Assembly (NCBI GenBank): GCA_010909165.1
Contig: VJWM01000317.1
Location: 13,304 to 77,303, forward strand
DNA length: 64,000 bases
Direction of reading: 5' to 3'
Source: Anthoceros angustus
Lineage: Eukaryota; Plantae; Anthocerotophyta
This document shows, piece after piece, positions 30,801 through 64,000 of the stretch. The notes beneath the pieces were generated by a model. The model worked only from the letters and a program-made list of their open reading frames with translations, made no database searches and was not told the origin of the DNA. How positions within the stretch are numbered: position 1 is the first letter of the stretch; each line of letters starts with the position of its first letter. A program made the translations under genes and the position numbers.

Positions 30801-31800
30801 ATCCCAGCGGATATGAAGAACAAACCTTGGTGCCTGCGGAAGTGTTCGGATGGTGCGCTTGATCCTTCACATAAAGAGCAAGTGGAAAACCTATTAGACT
30901 TTGGAATCCTAACCTTGAAGTTGGTCCTCCGAGGGTCGAAAGGATAGGGACAGGCGCATACTAGACCGTGTCATATCCGGATCTGGAGATCTCCAACTTT
31001 GAGAACGTGTCCGGTGGAACACTGGAACACATCAACGTTTGGCAGCCTTTCCGCCATCTTGGCGTATCCATCCGCAGCGGCTCCCGGTGTGTAGATGGTT
31101 GTCGCGGATTCACTCTTGACCCATCCACGGTGCATTGCATAACACCACCTCTTCAACTCCTCGTACCTCTCGAGCCGATGCGGTATACTCTTGAAAAGCT
31201 TGCAAACAACACCGAATCGCGTCGCCCCATTATATGCGTGATGACCTTGTCCTTTTACGGTGGCACTAAGTCCACGACCGGAGGGATCAAGAAATGTCTC
31301 TCTCGCCCTCCCCATTCGCGATAACGTTGCTCATGGAAATTGGCCTTAGACATTGGTGGGCGCATTGCTTGTTGCGGCATGGCTTCGGAAGTCCGGTGAC
31401 AACGTCGGAGTCGCTCTTGACAAAGGAACTCCACTTGCCCGCCTTCTACGAACCACGGATTGCATGTCCGTGGCGCCACAAATGTTTCGCTCGGTGGTTT
31501 GGGGTGGAATGACCGTGCGTCGGGGCGGTCGCCTTCCTCTCTCACTAAAGGTGCATCGGCGAGGGTTTCGAGAACACCCTCCTTTCCTCAATTGGAAACA
31601 AACCCCGGCCTTGGCAGTGCGTGGGAACTATTCGGTTCTTCATGGCGGCCGTACTAGGACTCCGCTCCACGGTGAATACAAATTGATGTTCCTTGGTGTT
31701 GAGGAACACCGAGAATCCTTGGTGAGGTCTGGACCCGCTTCCTCCAACCTTCATGCAAGCGCGGCATTTGGTGACGATCGGGGGGAACTGGCCTCTTACA
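27870..31800 (-). pseudogene. DDE/D transposase, Sola/DUF7869-like (frameshifted in this assembly; intron at ~29520-29930; ~890-bp internal duplication)
   Basis: WRTNFPRLRIPKSNRFSTCSLC (~30050-29985); YMQLAIDGMDQKKTELPHF, LDNTC(R)ENKNQ and VGFLLVGHTHDRxDQMFS (29420-29025); HQFKIT...SKQYSTSPQW; C-terminal GMFIA...FWIGKV...VHWY. Boundaries approximate. Confidence 0.8.
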
Positions 31801-31808
31801 GTGTTGTT

Positions 31809-34055: not shown

Positions 34056-34201
34056 GCGTAGGGCCTTTGAGGATCATCCCCACGCAAGGAAGGAGGTGTT
34101 CTTCTCCCCAATTCGTTGCTTTCCACCTCGCAAAGTGAGAACTCTAATACGTATGCTTTCAGTTGGTTGATGCGCGTCCGCGTTCCTTGTGGCAGGAAAT
34201 C

Positions 34202-39810: not shown

Positions 39811-42800
39811 TTCACGATAGTGAAGCCGGTTTGTGTGCGGTTGAATCTTGAGACCGTGAACTTCCTTAGGTGGCTAGAACGTTTTCTGTTTCGTGCTGTA
39901 TGTCGTATGGGCCGTTGTCTTTGGAGTGGATGACACGCGGATCTTCTAGTAGCAAGTTGTTACGTATAAGCCATGAGGCCATTTTGAATACATCGGCGGG
40001 CACTCTACTTATAAGCGAGCATTGCCGCTTGTCCGCAAGCATCCACACGCACCTAGCACCTTCATTGCGGACCCCTTTGAACCGAAATTGAATGTCTCAA
40101 TCACAATGATTGCTTGTGCGCGTGTGCTTTCGAGGCGTGTTTGGAGCGAATTAATGGCCTATGAAAAGTACCAATGACAATTTTTCCATAACCGCGTACA
40201 TTATTCATGGTGTATGAATATTATCGTGTTCATGGGGCAAGATGCCACTTGGGAAGACTTTTCTTTAGAGGAGGACAGGCATTAAAACTTGTCGGCCCGA
40301 TGAAGTGTGTTGACTAGCTAGATAGGAATGTTGGCGAGAGCCATTAAGGCTCACATAGGTGAATTTTGCTAGAATAGAATTTTACCCAAGATGCTTGGAT
40401 GTCGAACTTAAATTCGACAATAGGATACACTAAAATAAGGAGTAAAGGTGCGAGGCGCGCCGAGGCTGTATGTGAGGACCTCCCTATAAAAGGAGGAGCT
40501 TGTGAAGTAAAATTATCGTGTCTTGCGCTCCCATCCTCCGAGTCCTTCACTTTGTGTGCGGGAATTTCGTCTTGCATACCAAGCCAAGTCTGGTAGAGAG
40601 GAGCAGTCGGTCTTTGGGCGGAGGGCTTGCTCTTCTGAGCGCCCACTAGCTGCTCCCCTTGTGAATGGTTCTTTGTGTGAATTGTTTTGCTTTGAGTGTG
40701 TGGCGATGCTCAAGGAACTCTCGGCTTGAGGGTAGGCTGGAAAGACTCCTGGAGGTTCTCATTTATGGTACAAACCACATAGCCGGAAGAACTCGTTAAT
40801 TTCGAGACGGACCCAGGCGGTTGTGCCGTAAGGCGAGTTGGAATTAATGAGCCGACAATTAGTGTTAGAGTAGGAGATTGTGGAGGAAGGAAGGGTAGAT
40901 GAGTAGAGAAGAAGAGGCGTTGTTGATTGAGAGAGTTGTGAGGAGGATTAGAGTGTAGGAAAAGCGGAGGCCACAGGCGAGCCTAAGGGACGATCCCAAA
41001 TCTGCAAGTAAGAGGGCTCCACATGTGGAGAAGAGTGTCTTAGGAGTAGGGACGAAGTTGCGGTGTGGGTCGGGGGTCACAGGCGCCGTGATGACACCTT
41101 CTTTGTTAAGGCGTACACTGGTGTGTGGTGTCGTTGTAGGTTGAGGTTTGGTGAGTTCTGACGGCTGGTGCGTGGCTGCTGTAGAGGCGTGAGGCGCCTT
41201 GCTTGTTTAGAAGGCTGAGGTAGTGTGGAGCTGCGGTGGTGATTTCTCAAGATCGGATTTTGTCTCATGGGGCGAAACCCAGCGTCTGAAGCAGCGGTGG
41301 GATAAGTGTGGCGCTAGAGGGTGCATCTCGGGAGCCAGGATCACGCCTCCCACCAGGGAGGTGCAAAGGGTGATCTTCCAAGAAGATGGACATGATCATC
41401 ATGGGCGGGTTGATAGCCGTGGTAATGTGGAGAGGCACATTCCTCCACGGTGATGATGAACGAGGTCGAACAAGCTCCTATAGAGGTGCACATGCTCGTG
41501 GGTCGAGGCGGATTACACGACCTCGGCGGTGTAATCCATCTCCTGGATTATGTCGTCTTTGACAGTTACAGGAACCCTCTTCTTACAAAAGAGCCATGTC
41601 AATGAATAACAAGCGAGTGGGAGAAGGCCATGCGATTGATGAATTATTGCATAAAACCAAACTTGGGAGTTGGTTCGTTGCCTAGGGATAAGAAGGCACT
41701 CACGTGCAAATGGGTGTACAAGATGAAGGTCATACCCTTGATGGCAAACCAAAGTACAAGGCACGATTGGTTGCTAAGGGTTTCAAGCAACAACCGAGCA
41801 TTGACTTTGATGAGATTTTCTCACGGTAGCCAAAATGACAACTTTGCGATGTGTTCTTGCTTTGGTTGCGAGAATGATATGGAACTTATGCGGATGGATG
41901 TCAACACGACATTCTTGCATGGTGACCTTCAAGAGGACGTCTAGCAATATGTGATAGCCAGAATGGGTTTCTTGCATCCAAGAAGATGGACATGATCATC
42001 ATGGGCGGGTTGATAGCAATGTGGTAGTAGAGCACATTCCTCCACCGATAGATGAACGAGGTCGACAAGCTCCTATAGAGGTGCACGTAGCCGTGGGTCG
42101 AGCGAGGATTACACGACCTCGGCGGTATATAATCCATCTCCTGGATTATGTCGTCTTTGACAGTTGTGGGGAACCCTCTTCTTACAAAAGAGCCATGTCA
42201 ATGAATAACAAGCGAGTGGGAGAAGGCCATGCGATCGGAAATGAATTGACATAAAACCAAACTTGGGAGTTGGTTGGTTGCCTAGGATAAGAAGGCACTC
42301 ACAGTGCAAATGGGTGTACAAGATGAAGGTCATACCCTTGATGGCAAACCAGCACGATTGGTTGCTAAGGGTTTCAAGCAACAACCGAGCATTGACTTTG
42401 ATGAGATTTTCTCACCAGTAGCCAAAATGACAACTTTGCGATGTGTTCTTGCTTTGGTTGCCAGGAATGATATGGAACTTGTACAGATGGATGTCAACAC
42501 GACATTCTTGCATGGTGACCTTCAAGAGGACGTCTACATGTAGCAATGTGGAATGGGTTTCTTGCATCCGAAGACGCAAAGAGGCCACATTTACCCTCTA
42601 TGTCGTTATAGTCTTAGGATTCGATCCCAAGGGAATGGTTTTGTGTCAAGGTGTTCTGAATCTATGGATTCTAGACCTACCCCGCCGCTCACTACCCACC
42701 TTATCCAGCTACCCTACCCAAACCCACCACGTGGTAGACTGCCACCGCAGCGGTTCACCACCGTGGCGGGTCCCACCACGCTGCACCGCGGGGTCTATTT

Positions 42801-44558
42801 GTCACCGCTCCTCGCAGACCTTGGGGCTATGGACATACAAACACCTATATACACCTCACTTACCTCTAGGAATTTCTGCGATTCCACCGCACTTCCACTC
42901 CCCCACGCATTTCGATTTTCCCCACACGCACTCACAATCCCTCACAGTAGCACTCATCTACCCTTTGAGGACCTTTCCCTTCCTAATGAACTCTCCCTCG
43001 CCTCCCACCAGGGAGGTGCAAGGGTGATCTTCCAAGAAGATGGACATGATCATCATGGGGGCGAGTGGTAATGTGTGGTGGAGCACATTCCTCCACCGAT
43101 AGATGAACGAAGAGTCGAACAAGCTCCTATAGAGGAGTGCCGTGGGTCAGAGGCAGATTACACGACCTCGGCGGTGTATAATCCATCTACGGATTATGTC
43201 GACAGGTGACAGTTGGGGAACCCTCTTCTTACAAAGAGGCCATGTCAATGAATAACAAATGAGGGAGAAGGCCATGCGGTCAAAATGAATTTGCATAAAA
43301 CCAAACTTGGGAGTTGGTTGGTTGCCTAGGGATAAGAAGGCACTCACAGGTAAAATGGGTGTACAAGATGAAGGTCATACCCTACGATGGCAAACCAAGT
43401 ACAAGGCACGATTGGTTGCTAAGGGTTTCAAGCAACAACCGAGCATTGACTTTGATGAGATTTTCTCACGGTAGCAAAATGACAACTTTGCGATGTGTTC
43501 TTGCTTTGGTTGCGAGAATGATATGGAACTTATGCAGGATGGATGTCAACACGACATTCTTGCATGGTGACCTTCAAGAGGCGTCTACATGTAGCAATGT
43601 GGAATGGGTTTTGCATCCGAAGACGCAAAGAGGCCACATTTACCCTCTATGTCGTTATAGTCCTAGGATTCGATCCCAAGGGAATGGTTTTGTGTCAAGG
43701 TGTTCTGAATCTATGGATTCTAGACCTACCCCGCCGCTCACTACCCCACCTTATCCAGCTACCCTACCCCAAACCCACCACCGTAGATCGCCACCGCAGT
43801 TGGTGTTCACCATCGTGGCGGGTCCCACCACAGCGCGCCGCCTGTCGCGGGGGTCTATTTGTCACCGGCTTCCCTGGCGCAGACCTTGGGGCTACATACA
43901 AACACCTATATACACCTCACTACTAGGAATTTCTGCGATTCCACCGCACACCCCCACGCATTTCGATTTTCCCTCACACACTCTCACAATCCCTCACAGT
44001 AGCACTCATCTACCCTTTGAGGACCTTTCCCTTCCTAATGAACTCTCCCTCGCCTCACGGGCCACACAGACCCCTCCTTGGGCCGCACAGACCCCTCCTT
44101 GGGCCACACACAGACCCCTCCTTGGGCCACAGACCTCCTTGGGCCACCACAGACCCCTCTCATGGAATAAAACACGCCTGGTGTGGGGAACCCTCTTCTT
44201 ACAAAAGAGCCATGTCAATGAATAACAAGCGAGTGGGAGAAGGCCATGCGATCGGAAATGAATTGACATAAAACCAAACTTGGGAGTTGGTTGGTTGCCT
44301 AGGATAAGAAGGCACTCACAGTGCAAATGGGTGTACAAGATGAAGGTCATACCCTTGATGGCAAACCAGCACGATTGGTTGCTAAGGGTTTCAAGCAACA
44401 ACCGAGCATTGACTTTGATGAGATTTTCTCACGGTAGCCAAAATGACAACTTTGCGATGTGTTCTTGCTTTGGTTGCAGAATGATATGGAACTTGCGGAT
44501 GGATGTCAACACGACATTCTTGCATGGTGACCTTCAAGAGGACGTCTACATGTAGCAA

Positions 44559-47500
44559 TGTGGAATGGGTTTTGCATCCGAAGAAGCGCAAAGAGGCCAC
44601 ATTTACCCTCTATGTCGTTATAGTCCTAGGATTCGATCCCAAGGGAATGGTTTTGTGTCAGGTGTTACGAATCTATGGATTCTAGACCTACCCGTCGCTC
44701 ACTACCCACCTTCTCCGGCTACCCTACCCAAACCCACCGTGGTAGACTCGGCCACCGATGGTGGTTCAACCAGTGGTCCCACGTGCGCATCGCGAGTCTA
44801 TTGTCACCGGCTTCTCGCGCGACCTTGGGGCTATGGGCACAAACACCTATATACACCTCACTTACTTAGGAATTTCTGCGATTCCACCACTTCCACTCCC
44901 CCTCGCATTTCGATTTTCCCTCACGCACTCACAATCCCTCACGGTAGCACTCATCTACCCTTTGAGGACCTTTCCCTTCTAATGAACTCTCCCTCGCCTC
45001 ACGGGCCACAGACCCCTCCTTGGGCCACACAGACCCCTCCTTGGGCCACCACGGACCCCTCCTTGGGCCCAGACCCCTCCTTGGGCCACAGACCCCTCTC
45101 CTTGGAATAAAACACGCTGGTGGCGGTTGGGAAGAGGATCGAAAGAAACCCCGCTGCTTGGGCGATTCGCCTTCCCGGCAGCTCCGCCTCGGCCTTCGCG
45201 GCAATTCCTACCTCTTTTTCCAAGGCCACCCTCCTCACACCCCGTGGAGCTTGGCCACCCGCCTCGACCATCCAGGATCTTCCGGCCTTCTTGTGACGAG
45301 AAGGCGGTGCATCGAACGAGTTTGATGCTGATCAGACGTCTCCAACCAACCTCGCGCATAGCTTCAACACACGGAAGTTCACACCTAAAATTGTCTGTTA
45401 AGAGAGACTCTCAAGGGTCTCTTATACATTCAGCTGTGGATTTCCACAGCTCACTCCTACCAGTGTCTAGAAAATATGGCCCACTACCACGAGCGCTCCT
45501 ACCAATTCAGGTAACTACAGCTCCACGGGTCCTCAAAACATCCTATCCCCTACCCCAAAAAGAAGCCTCTGGCCTATGATGTCGCGCTCCCCTAAAATCA
45601 GTAGCGTGATTCTTTGCCTAGCCTACGGTAGGTGGGGTTCCGTCGCTCTCGCTCTCTGCCGCCTCATCCGGCGATTCTCCCCAAAACCTCCACCTCGGCA
45701 TCGCACTGCGGTTTCTTGGCGTCTTCCATGGGCGTCGTCGTCTATAGGCCCTATGCATTATTCCGCTCCTCATCGTTTGGACGCCACAGTGTGCTCCTCC
45801 CTCACGCCACAGCCTCCGCTCATTTCCTCGATCACCACTTGGGGGTAGGCCCCGCTCCGTTCGGAAGAACCAGTGGCGTGGCGGTCAAGATGTCGACCAA
45901 TAGTTTACGCCCCTCTGTCCCAACAACCACATACACATTTAGAGTGAGCACCGCTCACCATGCGGCGAAGCAGGACATGAGCATCCTCATCCAGGGCCGT
46001 AACTGTCGCTCTTGACTACGAGGTTCTTACCCTCTCCTCCGTGGACAATCACAGGCGGTGCCTTGGATCGGGGGATCGTATCCCCACTGCGGCGCTCTGG
46101 GTGACTTCCCCACCTCGGTTCCTCCTTCGCGGCGGTGGCGGTTTAGCCACCGTGGTGGTAGTTTCCCCGGTGGTGGCTTGACTCTGCTGTTCTTGTGGCT
46201 CGCCCTTCTTGGTTTGGCCACCTCTCTCTTGACTCGGCCCTAGCTTCATCTCTCTCTCGCTTATATCTCTCATGACTTCTTGAATTTCTCAGGCGCCATT
46301 GTTTCCATTTGTTCACAGGCTCATGAGACCTCATCTTGAAGCTCCTCGATTGTGGCATGCGCCCCTTGACTGATTCACTAAGGCCTCTGTTGGGTGGACA
46401 TGGCCTTCGCTCACATGCCTTGCATAGGGCCGCCTCGCATTCCGTCTGCGCTCCTCGCCACCTTGTTCTCGCCTTCGGGCTCTCCAACTTCTCCTTGAGC
46501 AACTTTTCCTGTTGGCACACTCGGCCGGTGAGAGCCATGGTGCACAGTCGAGGAGATCACTGCGTCGAGCCATGGTCGGGGCACAGTTCGAATTGGGCCC
46601 CGTGCCCATTCCCTTCCACAACAATTCTACGCGCGGTGTCACTGTCTCCACTTGATGGGACGTCGGTGAAATGTCGCCAAAAATGTTCCGGAGCTCCGTC
46701 GCGGACTTGGCTATCGAAACTAACCCCTCTTCTTCTAGGGGTTGGTTTGCCACAACTTCCTCATCCGCTCCAATCTCTCCTAGCGGCAGCGACTCCTCCC
46801 CTGCACCTGAGAGGGGCACAACTTGTCGTTTCCCTTTTATTTTCTCCTCCTTCACTCGCGTTCCTGCTGCCGATTTCGACCTGGTGACCCTAGGTGTGGC
46901 TGTGGGTTCCTCTTCTGCTGCGGCTGTCCTTCCCTTCTTCAGACCCGTTCGGCCGTCGCCCTCCGCTTCTTGCCCTTGGAAACCTCCACCTTCATCCAAG
47001 ATCTTCTAGGAGGCGCATTCCCTTCTGGAATCCTTCCGGAATCTTCCTTACACTCCTCCTCCTCTACCTTGAGTTCCACGGTTTCCGGCTATGAAGGCGG
47101 AACCGACTTCAACTCCGTTAGACACCGGGCGCGAACACATGAATTAGAAAAGGTGAAATCAAGGAGGGAGGGAAGGGAGAGCAAATTCGCCCTCTCCTCA
47201 CAGGCTCTTTCAAAGATCATCCGCCCCAATCGATTTGTGTACCTTTAACCACCTCATGAAGAAAGACCGAGTGAGTGCGCCATATGATCCAACTTGATTC
47301 TGCGAACACAAAATCCACTTGGCTAATCCCACAGTTGGAACACGAGTTGGCGAGTCACCCATCCATTGTTCACTCTCACTTCTCCGGGCTTCATGGCCTT
47401 GACTCTCGGGGTCTTCTTTCTCTGGGGTCAATTACCAAGCTTCCATCCTCGATGCTTCTCGCCCATACTTTCGAAAGAGTCCCAAATCCCAGTTTTGCGG

Positions 47501-48370
47501 CCTCTTCCTCGCGTCTCCCTCTTGCAACTTGGTTCTCAATTGCCGGGCGCACTCTTGCACCAATGCTGAGCTGTCGTAACACCATTTCTTCTCCATAAAT
47601 TCCAGACCCAGCTCCTGCACCAGGCTGCCCGCTCTCACCTTCCAGTGGTCCATGTTGGGCCACTGCATGGTGGGAATTTCGGCCGCAGCTCGGGGCGCCA
47701 TCTCCCTTTCTCCTTGTTTCTTCAGGAAAAGAACCCGACCCTCCTGCAAACGCTGGTCAGAAAAAGGGGACACCACCCTCGCGCGTCTCCTCCACTCGCC
47801 TTTGCGCTGGCGCTCTTGCCTCAGCGTCTCTTTTCCTCCTTCGCTACTTCGCCAGCGCCTGGTTTCCTTCCTCCGCCACCCGTGCGTGCGCGTCGTCCAC
47901 ACCTGCAAGCGAGAGCCCGGTAGCGGTTGCATCGCGCTTCTGCTGCTGCTCGGCCCGGCGGAATCGACCTCGCGGTCTTTGGGTGTGTCGTCTCTCGATT
48001 GCGCTCATTGCGGCAGCCGCTCACTAGGGTTGTAAACTCCCCCAGTGCATCGTCCCGTTCTTGGCCACCGTGGTGGGCGGCTACCTCCGCAGCTGCGCTG
48101 TGGCGGTGTAGGCACCTAACATATATAGACACTTTCTTATTTCTAAAATCACCAAAACCCAAGGACTCTATCTCAGAGCCTACCTATCAGGGTCGAAAAA
48201 CCTAAGGTTCAAAAGAAAATTATTATCCCAAGGGCCAAGGACCATTCTCGTATAAAAGACCTTACCCAGGCGATTCTCAAAGCACTTTGCTATACAAACA
48301 CTCCCAAAACAAAAAAAATCGTTCATCCCGACACTTCAGAGAGGGGTTAGTGTATATGTGGTCTTCCACA
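44559..48370 (-). mobile_element. 3.8-kb solo-LTR-like element ('family B') with internal ORF
   Basis: Termini TGTGGAA...TTCCACA and 5-bp TSD AGCAA (44554-58, 48371-75). Its 44559 end (rc) is homologous to the LTR end preceding the PBS at 49730-49835. Partial copies at 42549-43010 and 43598-44180. Confidence 0.85.
45004..45105. repeat. Minisatellite, ~20-bp unit CCACACAGACCCCTCCTTGGG, about 5 copies (also at 44061-44160)
   Basis: Directly visible tandem units. Confidence 0.9.
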
Positions 48371-49350
48371 AGCAACCAGAAGGTTTTGTTGAGAAGGGCA
48401 AAGAGAATCGGTGTGCGAGGTTGAGGAAGAGCCTTTATGGTTTGAAGCAGGCACCAGTGGTATCACAAGTTCCACTCATTTATGCTTTCTCAAGGCTACA
48501 AGCGTGGCGATGAGGATCATTGCCTCTATCTGAAGCAAGCTAAGGATCAAAGCTTGCTCATTTGATCCTCTATGTGGATGATATGCTAATTCTTTGAGCA
48601 GTCTTGATGAGATTTCGTTGAAGTCAAAGTTGAATGCTCAGCTTGAAATGACAGACTTGGGAGAGGCGAGCCATATACTTGGCATGCGTATTCGTCGGAA
48701 CAGACATAATTATCTGCTTTATTTGTCTCAGACGGAATACGTTAACAGAGTGCTTCAATGTTTCAACACGGAGAAGGGGAAACCATTGGGTACTCCATTG
48801 CCTCCATATGTGAAACTTTCAAGCGCGGATTGCCCAAGCTACGAGGAGGACAAAGGCTGAAATGGAGAAGGTCCCATACTCATCATGTAGGGAGTTTGAT
48901 GTATGCAATGATTGCTACCGTCGACATTGCCTTTGCGGTGGGAGTGGTTAGCGGTTTATGTCAAACCACGGCAAGAAGCATTGGGAGGCGATAAAAGGAG
49001 TTATGAGGTCACAGATGGTACAAAAGCTTTGTGCATATGTTTTGGTAGTGAAGATGCATGTGTGGTTGGGTACAGATCGCGATTATCACGAGGATATGGA
49101 CAAAGGAGGTCCACATCGAGTTATGTCTTCATACCTTTGGAGGCGATCTCATGGCGATCTCGTTTGCGATCGTGCATTCGCTATCTACCACAGGGAGTAT
49201 GTTGCGACAGAGGCTTGCAAGGAAGCCATATGGCTTGCTCGTTTAGTGGGAGACTTGGGGATCAAGGTTGAGCTGCCAGTGTTGCATTGTAATAGCCAGA
49301 GTGCTATCCAATTGGCAAAGAATCCAGTGTTTCATGCGAAGACTAAACAT

Positions 49351-52732: not shown

Positions 52733-55700
52733 ATGGCGAGGGACACCGTGGAGTTCGTGACTCGTCTATATTCGCGAGAAGATTATGTCGCTGAAGTCAC
52801 CGTCTCACCACAGACTGAAGATACTAAAATGCGCGACTTATTTCAAAAGGAAATACGTGTGACAGCTTTCTCTCAACAGAGCGAACGGTGTCTTCCACTC
52901 CAGGTGCTTCATACCATTGGCTCAGCTGGCGTGTATTTTAAGTTGCGCGCTTCAAATCAGCAGCTTCATGGCGACAGTCAGAACCTCTCGCGGTTCTATG
53001 GCTCCTGTCTGAACGATGCGAAGGTAATGTTAAGGGTCATCTCTTAGAAGTCAAACCTCTGCAGATCTTGTAGTTGGCTTGTCTTTTCAACGTATGTACC
53101 GAGGGTTTGCACTGGACCGCTGCCTGATGGAAGCCTAAGAGATAAATACAGGCAGGCTTCCTCGATGGCGCAATGTGTGCTTGTCGAGTCATGAATTAGT
53201 TATGGTGCTGGAGCTGTCCCGGCTGTACGAGTATCCATTCACGACTAGGTCGTAACGTACTTGATCTGAGGCTCCACTGCAGTTGCGTATGTCCATGCAG
53301 AATTGATTGTGTCACGCTAGAGGCGTCCTGCAATGCGTTCCAAATGAAGTTCAGGCGAAGTCAGGTTTGCGGGCGTGAATCACTGAAGCTTTTTCCTTGG
53401 TGTCTGCAGACTGCAGTGGTTTTACTTGAAGGTGGGAATGAGGTTCATCTTGTGGCCATGTCCTCTGGATCTGAGCTGCAAGTTCCTTGCTTCTGGGCTT
53501 ATCTGGTTGGACAGGGCCTGTATGCCTCTTGTCTGCAGATGTTCAACATGAGGTGTCTGTCAATTGTGTTTGATCTTGACGAGACCCTTATAGTTGCTAA
53601 TACTCAACGTAGTTTTGAACTCAAAATGGACACGTTGAAATACCGGACTCCTAGTACTGCTGAATCTGTTGCGGAGCTTAAGAGGTATCAGGAAGACAGG
53701 GCAATTTTAAAGCAGTACATCGAAAATGATACAGTTTTTGTGAATGGTCGGGCTATCAGGGCACAAAACGAAGTGGTCCCGCCTGTATCAGAGGGAGCAC
53801 TGCCGATGATGCGGCCGATTATCCGTCTGCCAGAGAGAAATATGATCCTCACTCGCATCAATCCAGCTGTAAGTTTGAAATTTGGAGCATTTAATGGTAG
53901 AGCAACTTGGCGCATGCTATTTCTGACCATCATGTAAATTCGCTTTATATCAGATACGTGACACCAGTGTGCTTGTAAAACTTCGTCCCGCATGGGACGA
54001 CTTGCGAAGCTATGTCATTGCGAAAGGGCGAAAACGGTTTGAGGTGTACATTTGCACAATGTCTGAGAAGGACTATGCTCTAGAGATGTGGAGACTGCTA
54101 GATCCAGAGGGACAACTCATAAACGTAAAGGAGCTGAATGACAGAGTTGTCTGTGTGGAATCAGGTATGCTGATGTCCGCCTGAGTTTTTGGGTGTGCAG
54201 AACCTGTTAGTGCACTGCAAGTTTACATGCCTGGCTGCCCAGCATATTTCTTACGTTGCCTTTTTTTGTCTTTTTATTTGTTTGTTGTTGGCAGGTGGAA
54301 AAAAATCCCTTGCCAATGTCTTTGCCCGCCAGACTTGTCACCCTAAGATGGCAATGGTCATTGATGACCGCATGAAAGTATGGGACGAGAAAGACCAATC
54401 CCGTGTCCATGTGGTGACTCCCTTTGCACCATACGGTGCTCCTCAAGCGGAGGTTTTGTGCTGTTCCTGCTACTCATACTCACGTCATCTCTGTTTTCAG
54501 CTGTTGCGTTTCAAATATCCGTATTGGTCGTGCTTTGCTTTTGCAGATGGTAGCTGGAGCAGTGCCTGTTTTGTATGTCGCAAGGAATGTTGCTTGTAGT
54601 GTCAGAGGAGGGTTTTTCAGGTAAATGAACAGCTGGCTGAAAGAATGGCTCACACAAAATTTTCCTGTAGCCTTTCTGTTGTAAGATTCTTGAGGAGCGC
54701 GGAAAGATGTGGGAAGTTTAGGTGGAATCACGTGTAAAGTCTAATTTTGTGCTGAAACTTTGAAGCAAAATCTGCTGCCCTCTTTACAGGGATTTTGATG
54801 ATTCCCTCCACCTTCAAATGACAACAGTCCGCTACGACACTGATCTTGCATCACTTCCTTCACCTCCAGACGTCAGCAACTACTTGGTTTGTTTTCACTG
54901 TGTCTGTAGATATGATATTAGATTTTCTTACAAGGGACGTTGTCTGATGGCCCTCAATTGATGACGTCAGTGCAGATGTTTGTTTCCTCCTGGCGGTTTC
55001 TCAGTGTGGGAATTGGTTTTTACTGTTTTAGGACTCTCAGGAGCCGTTTGCTCCTGGATTTGGTTCCAATGTTGTGTCGAAAGACTTTGCAGATGGGATA
55101 GCTAGCAGTGAAGTGGAATCCAGGATTCCTCAGGTAACTTGTTTTCTTATGTTTCGTTTTGTTCAAGGTGACAACGGAGTTCTGGTGAACCCTCTAAGCA
55201 GTGAAGTATGGTGAACCCTCTAAACAGTGAACTATGTAACAGGAAATGCCTGCCGCTATGGAGTCCAGGGTTCAACCTGCTGAGAATGAAGATCTAAGGT
55301 TGACCTTACGTCCCCCAGTGCAACCTACCCAACTATTTGCAACCTCACTCTTGAAAGAGCCAGCCATTCTGGACTCTGATAAGGAAGACTGTCATACGTA
55401 CCTTAATGTCTCCACAACAAGGCCATTAAGTGTAGGGCTACCACCATTGCCTGAAATATCCAAGGCTAGCTCCCCTGCCAGGGAGGAGGGAGAGGTGCCA
55501 GAGTCGGAGCTGGATCCAGACACCCGTCGTAGGCTGCTGATCTTGCAGCATGGCCAGGATACTGGACAGGCACATGCCCCACTAGAGAAGGTTGAAGATT
55601 CGTCTTTTCCACCATTGCAAGTGAATCTCTCTACCATATCATCTGGCGGTTGGCTTGGTGCTGAGGAAGAAATGAGTCCTCGGCAGCTTTCCAGGAATTC

Positions 55701-58000
55701 ACCCTTGATCTTGGAGCCAGAGTCACCATCTTTTGACAGGATGAATCAAGTGCACTTTCAGCTGCCTGCTGAGGGATCTTTTTCTGGTGACAGGGATTTC
55801 CGTCTGTCTAGACGACGATACGCAGATGAGGTATGTGTGAAGCTATTTGGAAGGAGTGCCAGCAAGCAGTTTGGTGATCTGTTCAGCATTGTTTAGGGGT
55901 GCATGGATTGATTCTCTTACATTACAGATGCAAGGATTCATGCTATGCATCTTTGTAACATAAAATGAAGCTGCACCTCAGCAGGACATGTTGCTACATG
56001 GCCTTGGTGATCCTCAAGATAGTCACCATGTGGGCTTTCTGCAGGGTTTGTCTTAGCTAAACCATAAAGCTAAGGGGGTTGCAATTTTTGTTGCAGGGGT
56101 TCCTAGAAGATCAGCATAGGACTGATCAAAGCTTGCTTGAAGACTCAACGTCCCCAGGTATGCGTTGCGCAAAAGTGTTGTTGTGATTAGAGGTAGTTAG
56201 TTTGTGGTTTTGGCTCTATTGGAGAGAGATGATGGACGTTTTTGGTATGTGGCAGGTAACGGAACTCATGGGAGATCGCTGTCCCCAGATGCTGTTACAG
56301 TGCTGCAAGGAATAGGGGAGAAGTGCAAGCATGTGGTATGCTTTTTGGGGTCTTTCACCTGTCACTTGGAAATGTCTGCTCATTGTGGCGGATTCTTGTG
56401 CTGACAGTCATTTTATCACAAATCTTTGTAGACTCTAAACCAATGTCCGTAATGTGTATGTGTCTGTATAGGTGGAATACAGGATACTACCAAATGCATC
56501 CCAGGTGTCTGTGGAGGTACGCGAAGCCTGCTGCGGCTCAAAGATGTCTTTTCTTAGTTCCTCCTTACAGTGCTTTTAACTTTCCTGTGGAGGTTGGCCC
56601 TGCAAAATCAGCCCAGTGTAGGGCTGAGAAGCACTGGGTGTCTAACATTTTCTTCGAGTTAATGCAGGTCATGTTTGGTGGAGAGAAGATGGGGGAAGGT
56701 GTTGGTCGGACGAAGCAGGAAGCAAAGTTGAAGGCTGCAGAGCATGCTCTTAGATGCTTAGCTGGTGAGTATTCCAGCCTTCAGAGCTCACATTGCTAGC
56801 TTTGTGTTTAGCCAGGATACTGCTACTCAGCGTGAGAAGATAATTCTATCTGCCTAACTCTTTGTGCTGAGGTGCTGCCTATAAGTTAGTGGGGCATGCA
56901 TTGTTAACGGTCCAAAGCTACTCAGTATTCTAGGCCGCCTTTCATTCTTTTCAGTGTCTGACTTATGTCATATGCCTCAGGTACCCCTCCCATGTCTTCT
57001 GGAAATAGTTCTAGTCTTCCAAGTAGTATGTATTCAGGGACAAGTGATGGCAGGGTTCAACGTAGGGGGCCACGAGATTCACGGATGGTTGGAGCTGGAC
57101 TGGACATACCCATTGCAAGCACGTCAGGGCAGGTAAACTACATGGACTACAGGCCTCCTGACGAGCCAGTGGCAGCAAGGGCACAGTATGATGCAGTGTT
57201 GGCATTAACAGAACTGGTATGCCATTTGATCTCCTGCTTTGAGTCTCGAATACCGACCATAGAAGAAGCATGTCAGTTCAGAGTGACTAGTGTTGAACTT
57301 ACCTCGCTCCTGCCATTTCCTTTATACAGTGTCAAGTGGAGGGCTTGAGTCTTAACTTTTCCCGAAGGGGCTTCCAGTGTCATGTGAGTGTACATGTCTT
57401 CGGGGGTTTATGTTTGTACTTACATCTTCTCTAATCAGAGAATCGTATAGTTGACAGAATCATTTGTAACAGGTTGAGGTTGGGGGAAAACTTTTGGGGA
57501 AAGGGAGTGGTCCCTCTTGGGAATCAGCTAGACAACAGGTGTGGACCTCCACACAGCGATTGATTATCATCCATCTGAACTGGATACAAGCACTTTCTAA
57601 AGCTTTGGGTTTGTTGTATCCTTGAAATGTTGTTAATGATCAAGGTTGGGTTGGGTGGTCTATGATATAGTTATGGGCTGGCTCTGTGGTTCAGGGGGCG
57701 GAAGATACCTTAAGGAATCTGCAACCTCAATATACCTCTGGTCTCCTCAAGCGCACTAACGCCCCCCGGTGAGCCCCTGGTGACTGACGAGACTGAGTCC
57801 ATAGGGAATCGTTGTGTGATATTAAGTAACATGTGGGTGGCCTCTGCAGATCCCCGCCCCTGCACTCAAACAAAAGGCAAAGAGTTGGAGATTTTTTACG
57901 AGGTGCGAGCCCACTTAGACATCTACCAGGATCACCTCACCGAGGTAGACATAGATTATCCCCAAACAAGAGATACTCAAAGTCTGGGCTTCCTATCTGA
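52733..58000 (+). CDS. CPL1: RNA polymerase II C-terminal domain phosphatase-like 1 homolog (FCP1/SCP-type HAD domain plus two dsRNA-binding domains), ~17 exons
   Basis: [90 protein letters not shown], ds[38 protein letters not shown]-terminal [15 protein letters not shown] exons approximately 52733-53023, 53410-53868, 53954-54164, 54295-54452, 54547-54620, 54790-54886, 55032-55133, 55243-55830, 56097-56157, 56256-56335, 56472-56516, 56668-56764, 56955-57216, 57330-57384, 57473-57538, 57695-57768, 57850-58000. Confidence 0.92.
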
Positions 58001-58654
58001 TTGGGTACGGTAATTAAACAATTTGGTTTCTCCTTACACCGACCAATCCTCATGGTCTGGAAATGTTTGTACAATAGTGCCCATTGTGAGGAAAAGCTGC
58101 TCTTGGAAGAATCAACCCCGTGTGAAGCCGAGTCTGCGGCCTGCTCTGGGTCTCACCCATTGATATGCCTCCCCTCCATGGTTTAGGGGTGGAACGTGGG
58201 ATAACACGATTTGTATTAGTTTTCTATGTGATACAGGTCCAGCGAATTCCTTAGGTTTCAGTTGTACGTATGCAAAGGGCATGTGCGAAGTACTTGGAGT
58301 CAATAAACCTGTCAGATATTTGATGTGTGGAAGATGTGTGTTCCTGCAGATGCTCAAGCTCTGCACTTGCCAACACCAAACATGAAGGGTGGGCGTAACA
58401 CTGCTTTTTGGGATCCTATACGTCTTTGGACGTTTATGGGTGCCGTACCTCTTTCTTATTATGTTCCTGCTCATCCTTTGTGCCCACATGAGCATTATTT
58501 AAGAAACCAGCTAATTCAATCATGCACAAGTTCAGCTGGCTTCAAGTTTTCCGGATGATAATGACATGTTTAAATAGAAGAAAGAATATTTGAAAGATAT
58601 TGGCCAAATATTTAATTTCGAAGTAAAAAGTAAATGCCTACCCACTTCTTAAGG

Positions 58655-58872
58655 TTTTTTTTTTTTGAGAAATGAATGCAGCTTATATTACAAAATGACT
58701 AAAAACCGAAAAAAAATACAAACGCCAAAGGTTAAGGACCTACCGGCTCCGTTTTATCAATACGGGGCAGAGGACCTCCGTGCACGGAATCCGTTACACC
58801 GCGTCCGGTCATTAGTCAGTGGATGGTCGGATCAATCACGCATAAATGGGTTCATGGCGGTATCGACTATCT
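58655..58872 (-). mobile_element. Possible 3' end of a non-LTR retroelement (poly-A tail)
   Basis: T12 run followed by GAGAAATGAATGCAGCTTATATTAC; on - this reads ...GTAATATAAGCTGCATTCATTTCTC-A12, typical of plant LINE ends. No TSD found. Confidence 0.4.
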
Positions 58873-58873
58873 C

Positions 58874-59770
58874 CTATTCTGCGGGGAGCACATGCATTCG
58901 TCGGTTAATGGGCTCACAAGTCGTCAGCTGCACCCTGAACTTCATGACATTGCAAGTGCCAAGGTCCTTCATTGAAAACGCAAAACAATCCTCACATGTT
59001 ATCAGCAGCTGAAGCAATCGCCATCTCTGATCATCTGTCAGTTGTGGGCCCATCTTCCACTGGAAACTGGCCATTGTCTTAGCCCTAATTTGCCTCCGCT
59101 GACAATGCAATGACTCTCCCAAGATCATCAGCTGAAGCTGGAAACGTATGATCCCTAAAAAATGCATACTCCCCCCCCAAGCTTCCAGCTGAAAAGGACA
59201 ATGCCGAAAGCCTGGCGACTGTTCTGCTTCCTAAGAAGGACAATCAAGGTGCACTACTGGAAAGATGAACAGCATCTGGATGACACAAGCAAGACTACTG
59301 ACTGATAAAGCCACAAAAGCCAGGACCAGCAAAAAGCCAAACAGATGCTGACTAGCCAAGTCATAGCATGTAAATCCATGCCCCGACCCAAAGCAGCACA
59401 ATGCTGAGCAAAAGAAACGCTAGGAGCTGCAATATCGTGAGTCGCAAACCCCATGATGCGTTCCTGCTCTTCAGCAGTAGGTTCCTCCCAGCGCCGAGTC
59501 TCTGAATGCAGCAATAAACTCGTGCCTTCTCCACGATATGCATAAGACCGTGAGAAACTAACAAGGGTAGGTAGCATACGGTGCGGATAACCCACCTTAT
59601 TAGTAGCAAACCACGGGGCTTTCTCTGGTGCTGTAACAGGTCAAGGAGAGTGATAAACCTCTAGCACATCATGTAACTGATGCTCGGGAGGACGGGTAGT
59701 ATGATTCAAAGACAATTCAAGCATGTCGCCAGTTGGTCCAAAAGCTGAAGACAATGAGCGTAGGCACACT
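58874..59770 (-). pseudogene. Decayed gypsy pol fragment: C5-cytosine DNMT C-terminus followed by the pre-RT segment
   Basis: AYAHCLQ/FWTN (motif VIII), LPTLVSF, WEEPTAEEQERIMGF (motif IX), QHCAALGRGMD (motif X); then MGPQLTDDQRWRLLQLLITCEDCFAFSMKDLG...VQLTTCEPI, typical of the segment just before gypsy RT. Confidence 0.65.
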
Positions 59771-59779
59771 GACATTGAA

Positions 59780-61215
59780 AACTAGTGGCGGCCCCAGCAC
59801 ATATGAGGGGAGAGCGCAAGAGGTAGAAGGCCGCCCATCCAAGGCCAAGCGAGTTCGGGAGGAGGAAGATTGGGAGGGGATTCCGGACTCCATACGTCTG
59901 GAACGGACCCCCTCGCCACCCCGGGAAGTGTGGGAAGAAATTCCCGCTTCTCTCCTTTTAGTCCCTCCACCGGAGCACCCTGCGCCGAAGGAGGCTGCCA
60001 TAGGGAGGGAGTTGGTGGTGGCGGCCACCGCCGGCCAGCCCTGGCCCCACCAGAACCCGGACCGGACCGGGAGGCAAAGGGAAGGCGGCCTCCATCAGCG
60101 CGGCGCCGAGGCCGTCGGTCCCTTGCCCTGCCGGGGTGGCGGGAGGCGGAGGCCGTGGGAGGCGAGAGGGATGTGGCCGGGCGGAGGACAGCAGCAACCC
60201 CCACCGAGCCGTCTGTCCCCAACCGGGAGGCAAGAGAGCCGACTCAGGGACCCCCTCACCACCTTCGAGCCCCAAGAGAAGGCGGGCGGAGAAAGAGCTA
60301 GCGGCCAAGAGGGCCAAGGAGGTGGAGACTCCGGACCAGAACACTCGGGACCTGAGGGTCCCCGGATCCGAGTCCCTAGTCCCGGCGTCACTACGGCTGC
60401 AGTGTGGCGTCCCGGACCAGGCGAGCGGCGGACTTCACGGGAATTTCCCCAGCGGCCGTGGTAGAAGAAACCAGGAGGGTACTGCATGTTATATGGTGCT
60501 CACGAGGTCTCGAGCAGAGAAGACCTAGGAGGTAGAGGCCACCAGAAGACGGATGGTGGAGCTCCAGGGTCAGGCGGAGGCGGCCCAAGCGGCCAAGAGG
60601 AAGGCGGAGACCCTCGCAAGAATCGAGGAAGAGAAGCGCAGGGCGGCGGAGTCGGAGGCAAGGTCCGCCCAACAAGACCAGGCCAAGATCCTTCAGCTGT
60701 GTGAACAGCTGAAGCAAGCGCAAGAGACACGAGCAAAGGCGGAGGACCTTTGCAAACGGAGGGAAGCGGCCCAGGAGGAGGCGGAGGAAGAAGGCGGGCG
60801 GAAAGGAGCTAAGGACTGGCCGAGGCAGCTCGGCGGGGCAAGCAAGCACAGGAGGCTCGGGTGAAGGCGCAGGCCGGCCGAGCGGGCAGACGAGGACCAC
60901 TACGGCGGGACCGAAACTAGTGGAGGAGGCAGTGAGGCGGCGCAGCCAACGAAGGCGGCGGCGGCGAGCAAGCACGGGCAAGCGTGAAGAAGAGAGGAGG
61001 CCAGCACCCGGGAGATGGAAGATCTCCGGGAACACGGTTAAGGCGGAGGATCAAGTCGGTGGAGGACCGCAAGGAGACCCTGGAGCTACAGCTCTAGGAA
61101 ACGAAGGAGCGAAATGGAATCCTTCGGGGGAGAATTGCGGATCACGCGAGCAGATCAGCGGCTCGTACATTGGAGGTGGAGGAGGGTCGACGGTGGACCC
61201 GTGGACATCGCCGGC
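59780..61215 (+). pseudogene. Frameshifted Glu/Ala/Arg-rich coiled-coil ORF, probably a retroelement accessory ORF (similar pieces continue at 62945-63790)
   Basis: MVELQGQAEAAQAAKRKAETLARIEEEKRRAAESEARS..., AQAHVEEAIQQVDSNFAYYHAELLK; ~210-bp tandem duplication at 63102-63520. Confidence 0.5.
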
Positions 61216-62945
61216 TGGAGAGGACCTTCTCCATGTCCTGTAAGCCCACAATCTTAGATGCAACTTAGCATCCCAATCATACATGTGTATTCTGATTACC
61301 TTGGTGAGGATCGTGCATAACAACCCGTTTGTCTTCTCCGTCAATCCGTTTGCCTTGGGGTTGTAGGGGGTCGTCTTCCGATGCCGAATGTTGAAGTAGG
61401 TGGTTAGGGACTCAACAACAGAGTTGAGGAAATGTGTCCCTCGGTCGCTGACCAACTCTAAAGGACACCCGTACCTTGTTATAATGTTCTCGAATAAAAA
61501 CTTTGCCACTGCAGGTGCGTCGTCCTTCCTCGTTGCTTCCGCCTCCACCATCTTCGTGCAATAATCCGTAGCCACCAAAATGTACTGTTTCCTTGTCCAT
61601 TGCGTTGGCGGTTTGATTGGCCCCACGAAATCGATTCCCCACTTCTCGAATGGTGCTAACGGTAGTATATAGGTGAGGGGCCATTGTGTCGACAATGTAG
61701 GCCGCCCAACCCTCTGACACGCATCACACCTCCGAGTGAACTCCCACACCTCCTTACGCAGCCCACAACGCATTCAAGATCTTCTTAACGGTCACCTGTA
61801 CCGAATAGTGTCCACCAGCCTCTTCTGCATGTAGTGCCTCTGTGACGAGTGCCGCCTCTTCAACCCCGAGACACCTCCGAATCTTCTCGTCCGGGCCTAG
61901 CTTGTATAAAACGACTCCCTTTAGACAATAGGGCGAGGCTTTGTGGAGAAAGCAGCCCGCCCCTCCCTGGATAAGCCATCGGGCATGATTCCATGCTCCA
62001 GGAACTTGCGTACTTCACCGTTCAACAGGTATCTTGGGCATGAACGACCCTCACGTTCTAACCTCCTCCTTCCAGGCATACTACGTCGCCGTCTGCCCAT
62101 TCGCCCGTTAGTAGCCCTAGGTGGCATGGATCCCTCTTCAAGTCCATCGCCTTCTGTTCGATCTTGCTCACGACTGCGGTCCGTTTACATGCCCTCAGGC
62201 AGAACGATCTCTTCCATTCCCGCTAGTCTAGCCTCGTGCCTAGGTCCAGCTCGTGCTCCCATGGCAAACTCCTGGCCTTCCTGCACCTCCATGTCCTCCT
62301 GAGGCGTGATTTCCCATGAATCCGCCACCTCCTTCTCCTGCGAGTTTTCTTCAAACTTGTCACGTGGTGCACCTCCTTCCTTTTGCCAACTCGTGGCCTC
62401 CCCTTGCAGCCCTTCTGACTGCTCACCCTCGAGGATCATTCCAGCCTCCTCCGCGCGCCCATGCTGGCGCCATCCTATCTCCTCTCGGATTTCCAGTTGT
62501 CCTGCTGACTTTTCACACTGGCGCTCCCTTCTTGCTCATTTGGCACATCTCAGCAACAAGACTTGCTGATCAATTCTTAGGCCGTCTTCAACATGCTCAC
62601 GTCCTCCCCTTGACCCGGCTGCGGCGACCGGCTCCTCGTGAATCTGGTGTGGTCTCAAGTCGCTCTCCGGTTTAGGGCGAGAAATAAAATCAGCATTGAT
62701 CTTGCTTCACAGCCTAGTTTCCACGTCGTAATCGAATTCTTGTAGCAGTAGCACCCATCTGGCAATCCTTCCTGACAAATCTGGCTTGTTGACAAGATAC
62801 TTCAACGCAAAATGGTCAACATGGAACGTCACCTTGCAAGCAAGCAGATAGTGTCTAAACTTCTTACAGGAGTAAATGATACCAAGACCCTCTCGCTCGG
62901 TGGTTGAGTAATTCTTCTCAGCGTCCGTGAGCTGTCTACCGGCAT
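61215..62945 (-). pseudogene. Gypsy RNase H, acidic linker and integrase fragment from an autonomous relative of family A
   Basis: RQLTDAEKNYSTTEREGLGIIYSCKKFRHYL...DHFALKYL...RIARWVLLLQEFDY; CDACQR, PFEKWGIDFVGPI, SDRGTHF, YNPKANGLTEKTN. Confidence 0.9.
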
Positions 62946-63799
62946 AGGGGAGGAGGAGCACGCGGAGTAGCAGCAGAGGCTGCAGGAGGTGGCGGAGCAG
63001 CCTTGGCGGCCTCAAGAGACTCCACCAGACTCCAGTTGGCGGGCCTGGCGGCGGAGACGGCCCAGCAGGCCAACTAGCATGCGCAGCTACCGGCGCACCT
63101 TTGGAGGAGGGAGTATCGGGTGCTCCAGGCTCATGTGGAGGAGGCAATCCAACAAGTCGATTCAAACTTTGCCTACTACCACGCAGAGCTCCTCAAGGAG
63201 GTCTGAACCACCCCGGTTAGCGGACCCCGGATGGATCGGAGGTAGTGGGATGAGGCGAAGGCCACAGAATGTGCGGCCATCGGGACTCTGGGAGGCGGCC
63301 AGAAGCAAGGCGGAGGAGGGAGTATCGGGTGCTCAGGCTCATGTGGAGGAGGCAATCCAACAAGTCGATTCAAACTTTGCCTACTACCACGCAGAGCTCC
63401 TCAAGGTGAGGTCCCGAACCACCCCGGCGATTGGACCCCGGATGGATCGGAGGTAGTGGGATGAGACGAAGGCCCTGGAGATAGTGCGGCCATCGGGACT
63501 CGGGGCCTGTTAAGACGAGCGGCAGGGAGGAGAGCATCGAGGAGGCGAGATACGGACACCCCAGGCATGAGGTAAGCCCGCCGCACTCCACCAGGGAAGA
63601 AAGGGAGGGCCGAGGGTCGAGAAGTCCAGAAGACCAAGCCGGTGAGGGGTGGGCGAGAGACGGAAGAAGGGCCAAGGAAGGAGAGGAGCGGACGCGTTCC
63701 CTCGATGCTCAGTGCAGTGGCGTGGAGGATGGTGAAACAGGCTCACCGGCGGTGAAGAAGGTGGCGGGCAGTTGTTGATCCGCGGGTATAGGGTCCCCA

Positions 63800-64000
63800 T
63801 GGGAGGAAAACCCCGGGCACTCGAGATTCCCCTCTAAGCGGCCACACTTATCCCGTTTTCGTCGTTGGGTTTCGTCCCATGAGACTTGGGGGCAGTCGAA
63901 TCTTGAAATCCGTCACTACACTGCGGCTACACACTACCTCAGCCTTCTAAACAAGCAAGGCGCCCTCTCACGCTCCCGGCGGTTCAGCACCACGGCGAGG
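63800..64000 (-). repeat. Family A LTR 3' end (runs off window)
   Basis: TGGGAGGAAAACCCCGGGCACTCGAGATTCCCCTCTA... matches 6668 onward and 16960 onward. Confidence 0.85.

What the first reader, a model, noticed from the sequence alone, without database searches (positions are those of the whole stretch)
58874..59770. Second TE-borne methyltransferase: C5-DNMT remnant inside a gypsy pol
Seen on -: AYAHCLQxFWTN ... LHDVLE ... NKVGYPHRMLPTLVSF ... WEEPTAEEQERIMGF..HDIAAPSVSFAQHCAALGRGMD, followed within ~150 nt by the canonical gypsy pre-RT segment. HCLQ is what HRLR becomes through CpG transitions (CGT to TGT, CGG to CAG). Established: AHR.R.FW.N, E.ER..GF and R...LG.. are motifs VIII-X of DNMT3/DRM-like C5 methyltransferases, and DNMT-carrying retrotransposons are reported from dinoflagellates and charophyte algae. 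Inference: a DNMT-gypsy lineage existed in this plant, so two unrelated TE classes in one window carry two unrelated DNA methyltransferase classes.
Basis: partly seen in the sequence, partly recalled or inferred. Interest (0 to 1): 0.78.

Follow-up and report, generated by a model that had tools for sequence, protein, structure and literature searches.

The report
Dead Gypsy retrotransposon DNMT3 fragment
This is a 0.9-kb broken scrap of a Gypsy-type jumping gene, in a seedless plant or close algal relative, that keeps only the tail end of a DNMT3-like DNA methylase placed just ahead of its reverse transcriptase; the scrap lacks the catalytic half, and the design is already described from an alga, where the enzyme would likely methylate the element's own DNA copies.

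Summary
Confirmed. Window 59774-58862 (-) holds the C-terminal 40% (motifs VIII-X) of a non-permuted DNMT3-like methyltransferase, a linker and a Gypsy pre-RT segment, with four frame changes and two stops; motifs I-VII and RT proper are gone. A profile of 61 homologous domains scores it 144 bits, next best place 0.2. Of 150 homologs, 16 have PR-DNMT-RT order, 41 RT-RH-DNMT-INT, 93 unassigned; the fragment groups with the first. A close family (80 metagenome loci) reads Gag-PR-DNMT-RT-RH-INT, has split direct repeats, DNMT dN/dS about 0.10, and DNMT3A as best solved match. The RH/INT pieces upstream belong to another Gypsy. This is a dead member of the Gypsy-DNMT3 kind described in Klebsormidium; this scan has already noted it on other DNA (31 findings, at least 7 genomes, this one included). 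One added lead: a G7-8 tract in the DNMT-RT linker is shared with that family, resembles its 3' polypurine tract, and lies where intact Gag-PR-DNMT frames of a sister family end. The window's claimed other methyltransferase was not confirmed.

The parts
59745..59774 (-). 5' half of DNMT motif VIII (decayed YAHRLR equivalent); 5' limit of the remnant about 59775-59785
   Evidence: aligns to profile position 194 onward
59732..59743 (-). 3' half of motif VIII (FWTN), in a different frame; frame breaks on both sides
59332..59724 (-). DNMT3-like target-recognition region and motifs IX-X, one frame, in-frame stop at 59643-59641
   Evidence: 144.5 bits, profile 212-341 of 346; 40% identity over 131 ungapped codons to L004
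59075..59331 (-). DNMT-RT linker, two further frame changes; keeps an HPD-VHL word (59282-59262) also found in the close family
59171..59178 (-). G8 tract followed by A, at the place of the G7A tract of the close family; only run of 7 or more G on the minus strand of the window
58862..59074 (-). Gypsy pre-RT segment (first about 70 codons), stop at 58876-58874; RT catalytic core absent; last 8 codons matched by eye
   Evidence: 46% to L004; E 3.6e-11 to P0020
59781..61242 (.). Not part of the element: GC-rich (65%) unrelated sequence with decayed E/K/A/R-rich frames on +; it stands where DNMT motifs I-VII would be
   Evidence: no profile match; no Pfam family in its frames
61243..62946 (-). 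Not part of the element: RNase H (62946-62734) and integrase core (61656-61357) of another Gypsy family, cut off at 61243
   Evidence: related copies at 3131-4202 and 13763-14785; integrase 27% identical to the DNMT family's
52754..57772 (+). Neighbouring host gene, CPL1-type RNA polymerase II CTD phosphatase (NIF + dsRM); 3' end read by eye; ends about 1.1 kb from the remnant

Best explanation
This is a dead, doubly truncated fragment of a Gypsy retrotransposon whose polyprotein carried a DNMT3-like cytosine methyltransferase ahead of reverse transcriptase, an enzyme that in active relatives would likely be packed into the particle and methylate the element's own cDNA before integration. Shown here: the fragment's homology and order (DNMT motifs VIII-X, linker, pre-RT), the loss of the SAM-binding and catalytic motifs, the Gag-PR-DNMT-RT-RH-INT layout, split direct repeats and purifying selection in close relatives. 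Inferred: that this copy's ancestor had the same full layout (about 0.9), release of the DNMT by the element's protease, and CG methylation of cDNA that lets new copies arrive pre-marked and so avoid host recognition or limit their own activity (about 0.5). The present fragment makes no working enzyme.
For: 382 homologs at E<=1e-3; PF00145 in 39 of the 100 scanned of the best 150. Domain order among the 150: 16 PR-DNMT-RT, 41 RT-RH-DNMT-INT, 93 too short to assign. The fragment sits in an 8-row clade (SH-aLRT 95) with L004, which has PR-DNMT-RT order, inside a 22-row group with no row of the other order (support 83). 70 of 80 loci have the pre-RT anchor within 600 nt after the DNMT end, 34 at 426 nt in frame; the window's distance is 395 nt. 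L004 and the window are colinear over both DNMT (40%) and pre-RT (46%). L004 DNMT: best solved match DNMT3A E 8e-9, with motifs VIII, IX, X aligned. dN 0.099, dS 1.04 over 320 codons between two subfamilies. A...B-A-B repeats in 4 of 6 loci examined, as the 2018 paper says for KnitGypsy-Dnmt3 (DIRS-like repeats, Gypsy domains). No frameshift within the aligned exons of the neighbouring host gene, so the breaks look like decay rather than base-calling noise. SymbioDIRS-Dnmt3 domains methylate CG in yeast (PMC5890265 section 10).
Against: The K. nitens Gypsy DNMT showed no de novo methylation in yeast, which the authors call inconclusive, so activity of any Gypsy-borne DNMT3 is unshown in what I read. 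The close family has WEC in place of the usual PC at motif IV (30 of 48 loci matched). No intact copy from this genome could be examined (no genome held), so PR, RT, INT and repeats of this exact family are inferred from relatives at 40-56% identity. The tree rests on 138 columns and a quick search. The 80 loci are partly redundant (34 loci gave 29 distinct segments) and were selected by similarity.
Confidence: 0.88

Rival explanations
1. The element origin is right but the DNMT domain does not methylate cDNA; it is kept as a nucleic-acid-binding or particle component, or acts on host chromatin at the insertion site.
For: No activity for the K. nitens domain in yeast; EC instead of PC at motif IV in 26 of 61 homologs; some sister families make Gag-PR-DNMT as a separate frame, which would give far more enzyme than one cDNA needs.
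Against: Motif I, the catalytic Cys, motif VI (EN) and motif VIII arginines are kept in most full domains; dN/dS about 0.10; human DNMT3B also failed in the same yeast assay.
Confidence: 0.3
2. The DNMT piece is a processed pseudogene or exon of a host DNMT3/DRM gene that lies next to a Gypsy fragment by chance.
For: The region is a patchwork of unrelated element fragments; plants have host DNMT3 and DRM genes (PMC12344493 passage).
Against: Among the best 150 homologs, 57 could be assigned and all 57 are retroelement polyproteins; the spacing, linker word and G tract between DNMT and pre-RT match the element family; phmmer of the piece against solved DNMT3/DRM gives no hit, so it is far from host enzymes.
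Confidence: 0.02
3. The DNMT piece belongs with the upstream RNase H and integrase remnants, as in the RT-RH-DNMT-INT layout, and was rearranged.
For: Same strand and within 3.2 kb; that layout is the commoner one among assigned homologs (41 of 57).
Against: The order here is RH-INT-unrelated 1.5 kb-DNMT-preRT, which fits neither layout; that RH/INT family recurs at 3131-4202 and 13763-14785 with no DNMT signal; its integrase is 27% identical to the DNMT family's; the fragment groups away from all 41 rows of that layout.
Confidence: 0.03

Closest known systems
KnitGypsy-Dnmt3 of Klebsormidium nitens (de Mendoza et al. 2018, PMC5890265; passages and sections 10-11 read, 3 supplementary text files searched without hits, figures not seen); called streptophyte 'Gypsy-DNMT3' in bioRxiv 10.64898/2026.05.21.726589 (one passage read)
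   Same: Intronless, non-rearranged Dnmt3-type domain inside a Gypsy polyprotein; purifying selection on the domain; DIRS-like repeat layout with Gypsy domains (seen here in close relatives).
   Different: Host here is not shown to be an alga: its CPL1 gene is closest to liverworts (59-63%) but falls in no sampled group. This copy is a dead 0.9-kb fragment. The domain order of the K. nitens element is in Fig. 4c, which I could not see, and no K. nitens sequence came up in my searches, so direct kinship was not measured.
SymbioDIRS-Dnmt3 of Symbiodinium (same paper)
   Same: Dnmt3-type domain in the Pol frame; the only such retroelement domains shown there to methylate CG.
   Different: DIRS with tyrosine recombinase; independent acquisition according to the paper; this lineage has a DDE integrase.
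Animal DNMT3A/B catalytic domain (PDB 6brr, 7v0e) and plant DRM (PDB 4onj, 7l4c)
   Same: Motifs VIII, IX, X align to DNMT3A through the relative L004.
   Different: No PWWP/ADD domains; longer target-recognition region; W[EP]C at motif IV; not circularly permuted as DRM is (DRM permutation from own knowledge and the 2018 passage).
Central polypurine tracts of Ty1, HIV-1 and Arabidopsis EVADE (PMC7197481, passages read)
   Same: Internal purine tracts that prime plus-strand synthesis; the linker G tract resembles the family's own 3' tract.
   Different: Those are described as 15-19 nt purine tracts in EVADE; the tract here is G7-8 plus a short purine tail and is untested; it may instead be a recoding site.

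Membership tests
C5 cytosine methyltransferase, DNMT3 type | Motifs VIII, IX, X with DNMT3-type wording | tested here: met
   (decayed in this copy)
C5 cytosine methyltransferase, DNMT3 type | Motifs I, IV (catalytic Cys), VI present in this copy | tested here: not met
   No profile match upstream of position 194 anywhere in the window; present in relatives. The copy is a fragment, not an enzyme.
C5 cytosine methyltransferase, DNMT3 type | Closer to DNMT3 than to other C5 families | tested here: met
   For relative L004: DNMT3A 8e-9, DNMT3B 9e-7, DRM 4e-4, M.HhaI 7e-3; no tree against reference DNMT families was built
C5 cytosine methyltransferase, DNMT3 type | De novo CG methylation activity | not testable with these tools
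   K. nitens domain negative and inconclusive in yeast
DRM (domains rearranged methyltransferase) | Motifs VI-X precede I-V | tested here: not met
   After motif X come the linker and pre-RT; relatives have motif I first
Gypsy-DNMT3 retrotransposons (KnitGypsy-Dnmt3 kind) | Intronless DNMT3 domain within the Gypsy polyprotein frame | tested here: met
   Colinear DNMT-linker-preRT in the window; one open frame from DNMT into RNase H in L004; P0157 Gag-PR-DNMT-RT-RH-INT
Gypsy-DNMT3 retrotransposons (KnitGypsy-Dnmt3 kind) | Gypsy order RT-RH-INT with DDE integrase | tested here: inconclusive
   Met in relatives; deleted in this copy
Gypsy-DNMT3 retrotransposons (KnitGypsy-Dnmt3 kind) | DIRS-like split terminal repeats | tested here: inconclusive
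   A...B-A-B in 4 of 6 relative loci, A piece only in 1, none in 1; no termini survive in this copy
Gypsy-DNMT3 retrotransposons (KnitGypsy-Dnmt3 kind) | [quoted passage not shown] | tested here: met
   dN/dS about 0.10 for L004 against L002; window against relatives has saturated dS, dN 0.56
Gypsy-DNMT3 retrotransposons (KnitGypsy-Dnmt3 kind) | Common ancestry with the K. nitens elements | not tested
   No K. nitens sequence was among the named hits

The most novel reading that the evidence does not exclude
Gypsy-DNMT3 elements are a green-lineage-wide superfamily that reached land plants, and the G7-8 tract kept at the DNMT-RT junction is a working signal: a recoding site at which some families end a Gag-PR-DNMT protein, so that particles are loaded with methyltransferase at Gag-like copy number while RT needs a frameshift, and/or an internal plus-strand primer that copies the element's 3' polypurine tract.
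Probability: 0.3. Interest if true: 0.62.

Novelty: new member of a known kind. Interest (0 to 1): 0.36.

Why it matters
The copy itself is inert. It adds one more host (a seedless plant or close streptophyte) to a kind of retrotransposon that carries the enzyme class hosts use to silence it, described in print only for K. nitens as far as my searches show. Named relatives in two liverworts, Closterium, Haematococcus and Cymbomonas, and two domain orders, suggest a much wider family. Intact Gag-PR-DNMT frames among the relatives make the open question (does a Gypsy-borne DNMT3 methylate its own cDNA?) testable.

Tried and rejected
Pfam on the window pieces: no PF00145. phmmer of the piece against PDB: only nanobody noise, E 0.28 or worse. 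Word-indexed search with the piece: 0 of 79 candidates. IMG/VR scans with four queries: no relative. No whole genome held; no sequencing run was listed, so copy number, expression and methylation were not examined. No second DNMT copy in the window. Rfam on 57500-64000: 0. A programmed frameshift at the G tract in the close family: not supported, since the modal state is G7 and in frame (34 of 70). Third-position test at the G tract within that family: uninformative, copies too alike. A T6A word just after the G tract in the window looks like a slippery heptamer (recalled motif) but is absent from the seven relative linkers printed, so I dropped it. CpG depletion of the remnant (0.52) equals that of host sequence (0.51-0.57) and says nothing about self-methylation. 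The careful CPL1 tree did not finish; the quick tree was used. The first run of the motif VIII test used a coordinate one base off and was repeated.

Full report
Observation. The quoted peptides are all on the minus strand between 59765 and 59374, in three frames with one stop. Pfam does not recognise them, but a full HMMER search with 59326-59640 found 382 proteins at E<=1e-3, 53 at 1e-10, and the ESM Atlas put 13 of its 30 hits in a set whose best cluster carries PF00145 on 21% of members (a lead only). Of the best 150, I scanned 100; 39 show PF00145 at E<=1e-3, upstream of the stretch that matches the window. A profile from 61 homologous domains scores the window 144.5 bits at one place and 0.2 bits at the next best of 324 chunks, covering profile positions 212-341 of 346. 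The out-of-frame motif VIII pieces, read with X at the breaks, add 20 bits, more than any of 100 shuffles. Nothing matches positions 1-193: the SAM-binding motif I, catalytic motif IV and motif VI are missing.

Anatomy. From 5' to 3' on minus: motif VIII (59774-59732, two frame breaks), target-recognition region and motifs IX-X (59724-59332, stop at 59643-59641), a linker with two more frame changes and a G8 tract (59178-59171), then about 70 codons of the Gypsy segment that precedes RT (59074-58862, stop at 58876-58874). Upstream lies unrelated GC-rich sequence (59781-61242) and then RNase H and integrase remnants of another Gypsy family, which recurs at 3131-4202 and 13763-14785 with no DNMT signal and whose integrase is 27% identical to that of the DNMT family. 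Downstream, about 1.1 kb away on the other strand, ends a CPL1-type host gene. Its aligned exons show no frameshift, which argues that the breaks in the remnant are decay rather than sequencing noise, although the window has many 87-93% tandem duplications.

Host. The CPL1 exon's best hits are Marchantia paleacea (63%), Riccia and Diphasiastrum. In a quick tree of 22 rows it lies on a long branch outside the sampled seed plants, mosses, Marchantiales and lycophytes. No hornwort, fern or algal row was included, so I can say only seedless plant or close streptophyte.

Relatives. Among the 150, 16 have DNMT after PR and/or before RT, 41 have RT-RH-DNMT-INT (often with G-patch or PHD), 93 are too short to assign. 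Named members, from 30 proteins looked up and one named search: Calypogeia fissa, Marchantia polymorpha, Closterium spp., Haematococcus lacustris, Cymbomonas tetramitiformis. A scan with alignment A3 found 202 relatives in metagenome contigs and kept 80; their host was not determined here. They read PR-DNMT-preRT-RT-RH-INT; 70 of 80 have the pre-RT anchor within 600 nt of the DNMT end, 34 at 426 nt in frame, against 395 nt in the window. L004 is colinear with the window over DNMT (40%, 131 ungapped codons) and pre-RT (46%). On a 138-column tree of 74 rows (57 assigned proteins, 14 unassigned close hits, window, L004, L002; the other unassigned rows left out), the fragment is in an 8-row clade with L004 (SH-aLRT 95) and apart from the 41 rows of the other order. 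The L004 domain's best solved match is DNMT3A (E 8e-9), ahead of DNMT3B, DRM and M.HhaI. Two subfamilies differ by dN 0.099 and dS 1.04 over 320 codons. Four of six loci examined have split direct repeats A...B-A-B.

The G tract. At the same linker position 65 of 77 loci carry a run of 6 or more G, 48 of them G7. The window has G8A there, its only run of 7 or more G on the minus strand in 64 kb. The same family has a G8A tract directly before repeat B, the position of a 3' polypurine tract (6 or more G in 23 of 41 loci) and a G6A tract near the Gag/PR boundary (30 of 57). Separately, seven proteins of one sister family (P0285, P0287-P0292; six of them 1330-1339 residues, Gag-sized N-terminus, PR and DNMT, no RT) all end 8 residues after a GG, and other PR-DNMT frames (P0294-P0296, P0281) also end before RT. 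Of 77 homologs that end 25-140 residues after the DNMT, 31 have GG in the last 25 residues, against 13% of 1523 and 17% of 114 control windows (rows are partly redundant, and slippage in a homopolymer of dead or misassembled copies would give the same pattern). In the window one frame through the tract stops four codons later and another runs on into pre-RT, but upstream indels hide which was original. Against a recoding role: the close family is mostly in frame. Conserved Gly-Gly with G-ending codons could account for the run without any nucleotide function. So this is a lead: internal plus-strand primer as in Ty1, HIV-1 and EVADE (PMC7197481 passages) or a recoding site.

Mechanism. Shown: homology, order, truncation, and the layout and selection in relatives. 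Inferred: in an active element the DNMT is made with Gag/Pol, enters the particle, and methylates CG in the new cDNA, as de Mendoza et al. propose for DIRS elements (PMC5890265 section 11). That paper shows activity for SymbioDIRS-Dnmt3 but not for the K. nitens Gypsy domain (section 10). I put the element origin at about 0.9 and self-methylation at about 0.5. The fragment itself has no catalytic half.

Comparison and novelty. It works like, and by the features I could test in this copy and its relatives belongs with, KnitGypsy-Dnmt3. Two later texts mention the kind only in passing, one as 'LTR Copia' (PMC12344493 passage), one as streptophyte Gypsy-DNMT3 (bioRxiv 10.64898/2026.05.21.726589 passage; its supplements are closed and may list more hosts). 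Searches joining DNMT3 with hornwort, Anthoceros, moss/liverwort or green alga plus retrotransposon terms returned 0 papers; the library lacks most subscription papers. This scan has already noted the same kind in 31 findings from at least 7 genomes, with at least three notes on this genome. Verdict: real, a dead new member of a known kind, modest interest.

Noticed in passing
window 35700-39530 (+), duplicated 35518-37078 / 37076-38587: Decayed frames with words that by eye resemble a ParB-like domain and a beta-class amino-methyltransferase (motif IV-like near 38880, motif I-like near 39410; motif labels recalled). Pfam 0 of 8 pieces and Atlas gave no methyltransferase.
   Followed up: partly
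L004 6051, 8396 and 11601 approx.; window 59171-59178: Three G-rich tracts in the close family (Gag/PR boundary, DNMT-RT linker, before repeat B); the middle one is kept in the window.
   Followed up: partly
P0285, P0287-P0292, P0294-P0296, P0281 (protein ids): Long PR-DNMT frames of 1330-1440 residues (P0285 shorter) that end before RT; possible programmed recoding. DNA not available.
   Followed up: partly
P0069, P0326 (protein ids): The same DNMT domain after an integrase plus retroviral SH3-like domain (P0069, Copia-like order) and before an RNase H PF00075 (P0326): possibly further independent element classes.
   Followed up: no
P0073, P0095, P0105, P0126, P0134, P0135 (protein ids): RT-RH-DNMT-INT-PHD polyproteins, some with G-patch or a Tudor domain; named members are chlorophytes.
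   Followed up: partly
window 41344-45122 and 48256-48857 (+): Copia RT remnants (RVT_2) in several near-tandem copies at 88-93% identity; similar tandem duplications at 29273-31055, 31808-34064, 63103-63505 could be real or assembly stutter.
   Followed up: no
window 1-26400, 40231-41334, 63800-63977: A multi-copy repeat family at 80-91% identity, nested in both orientations, with no Pfam family in its frames of 85 residues or more.
   Followed up: no
window 52754-57772 (+): Apparently intact multi-exon CPL1-type CTD phosphatase gene, usable to place the host.
   Followed up: partly
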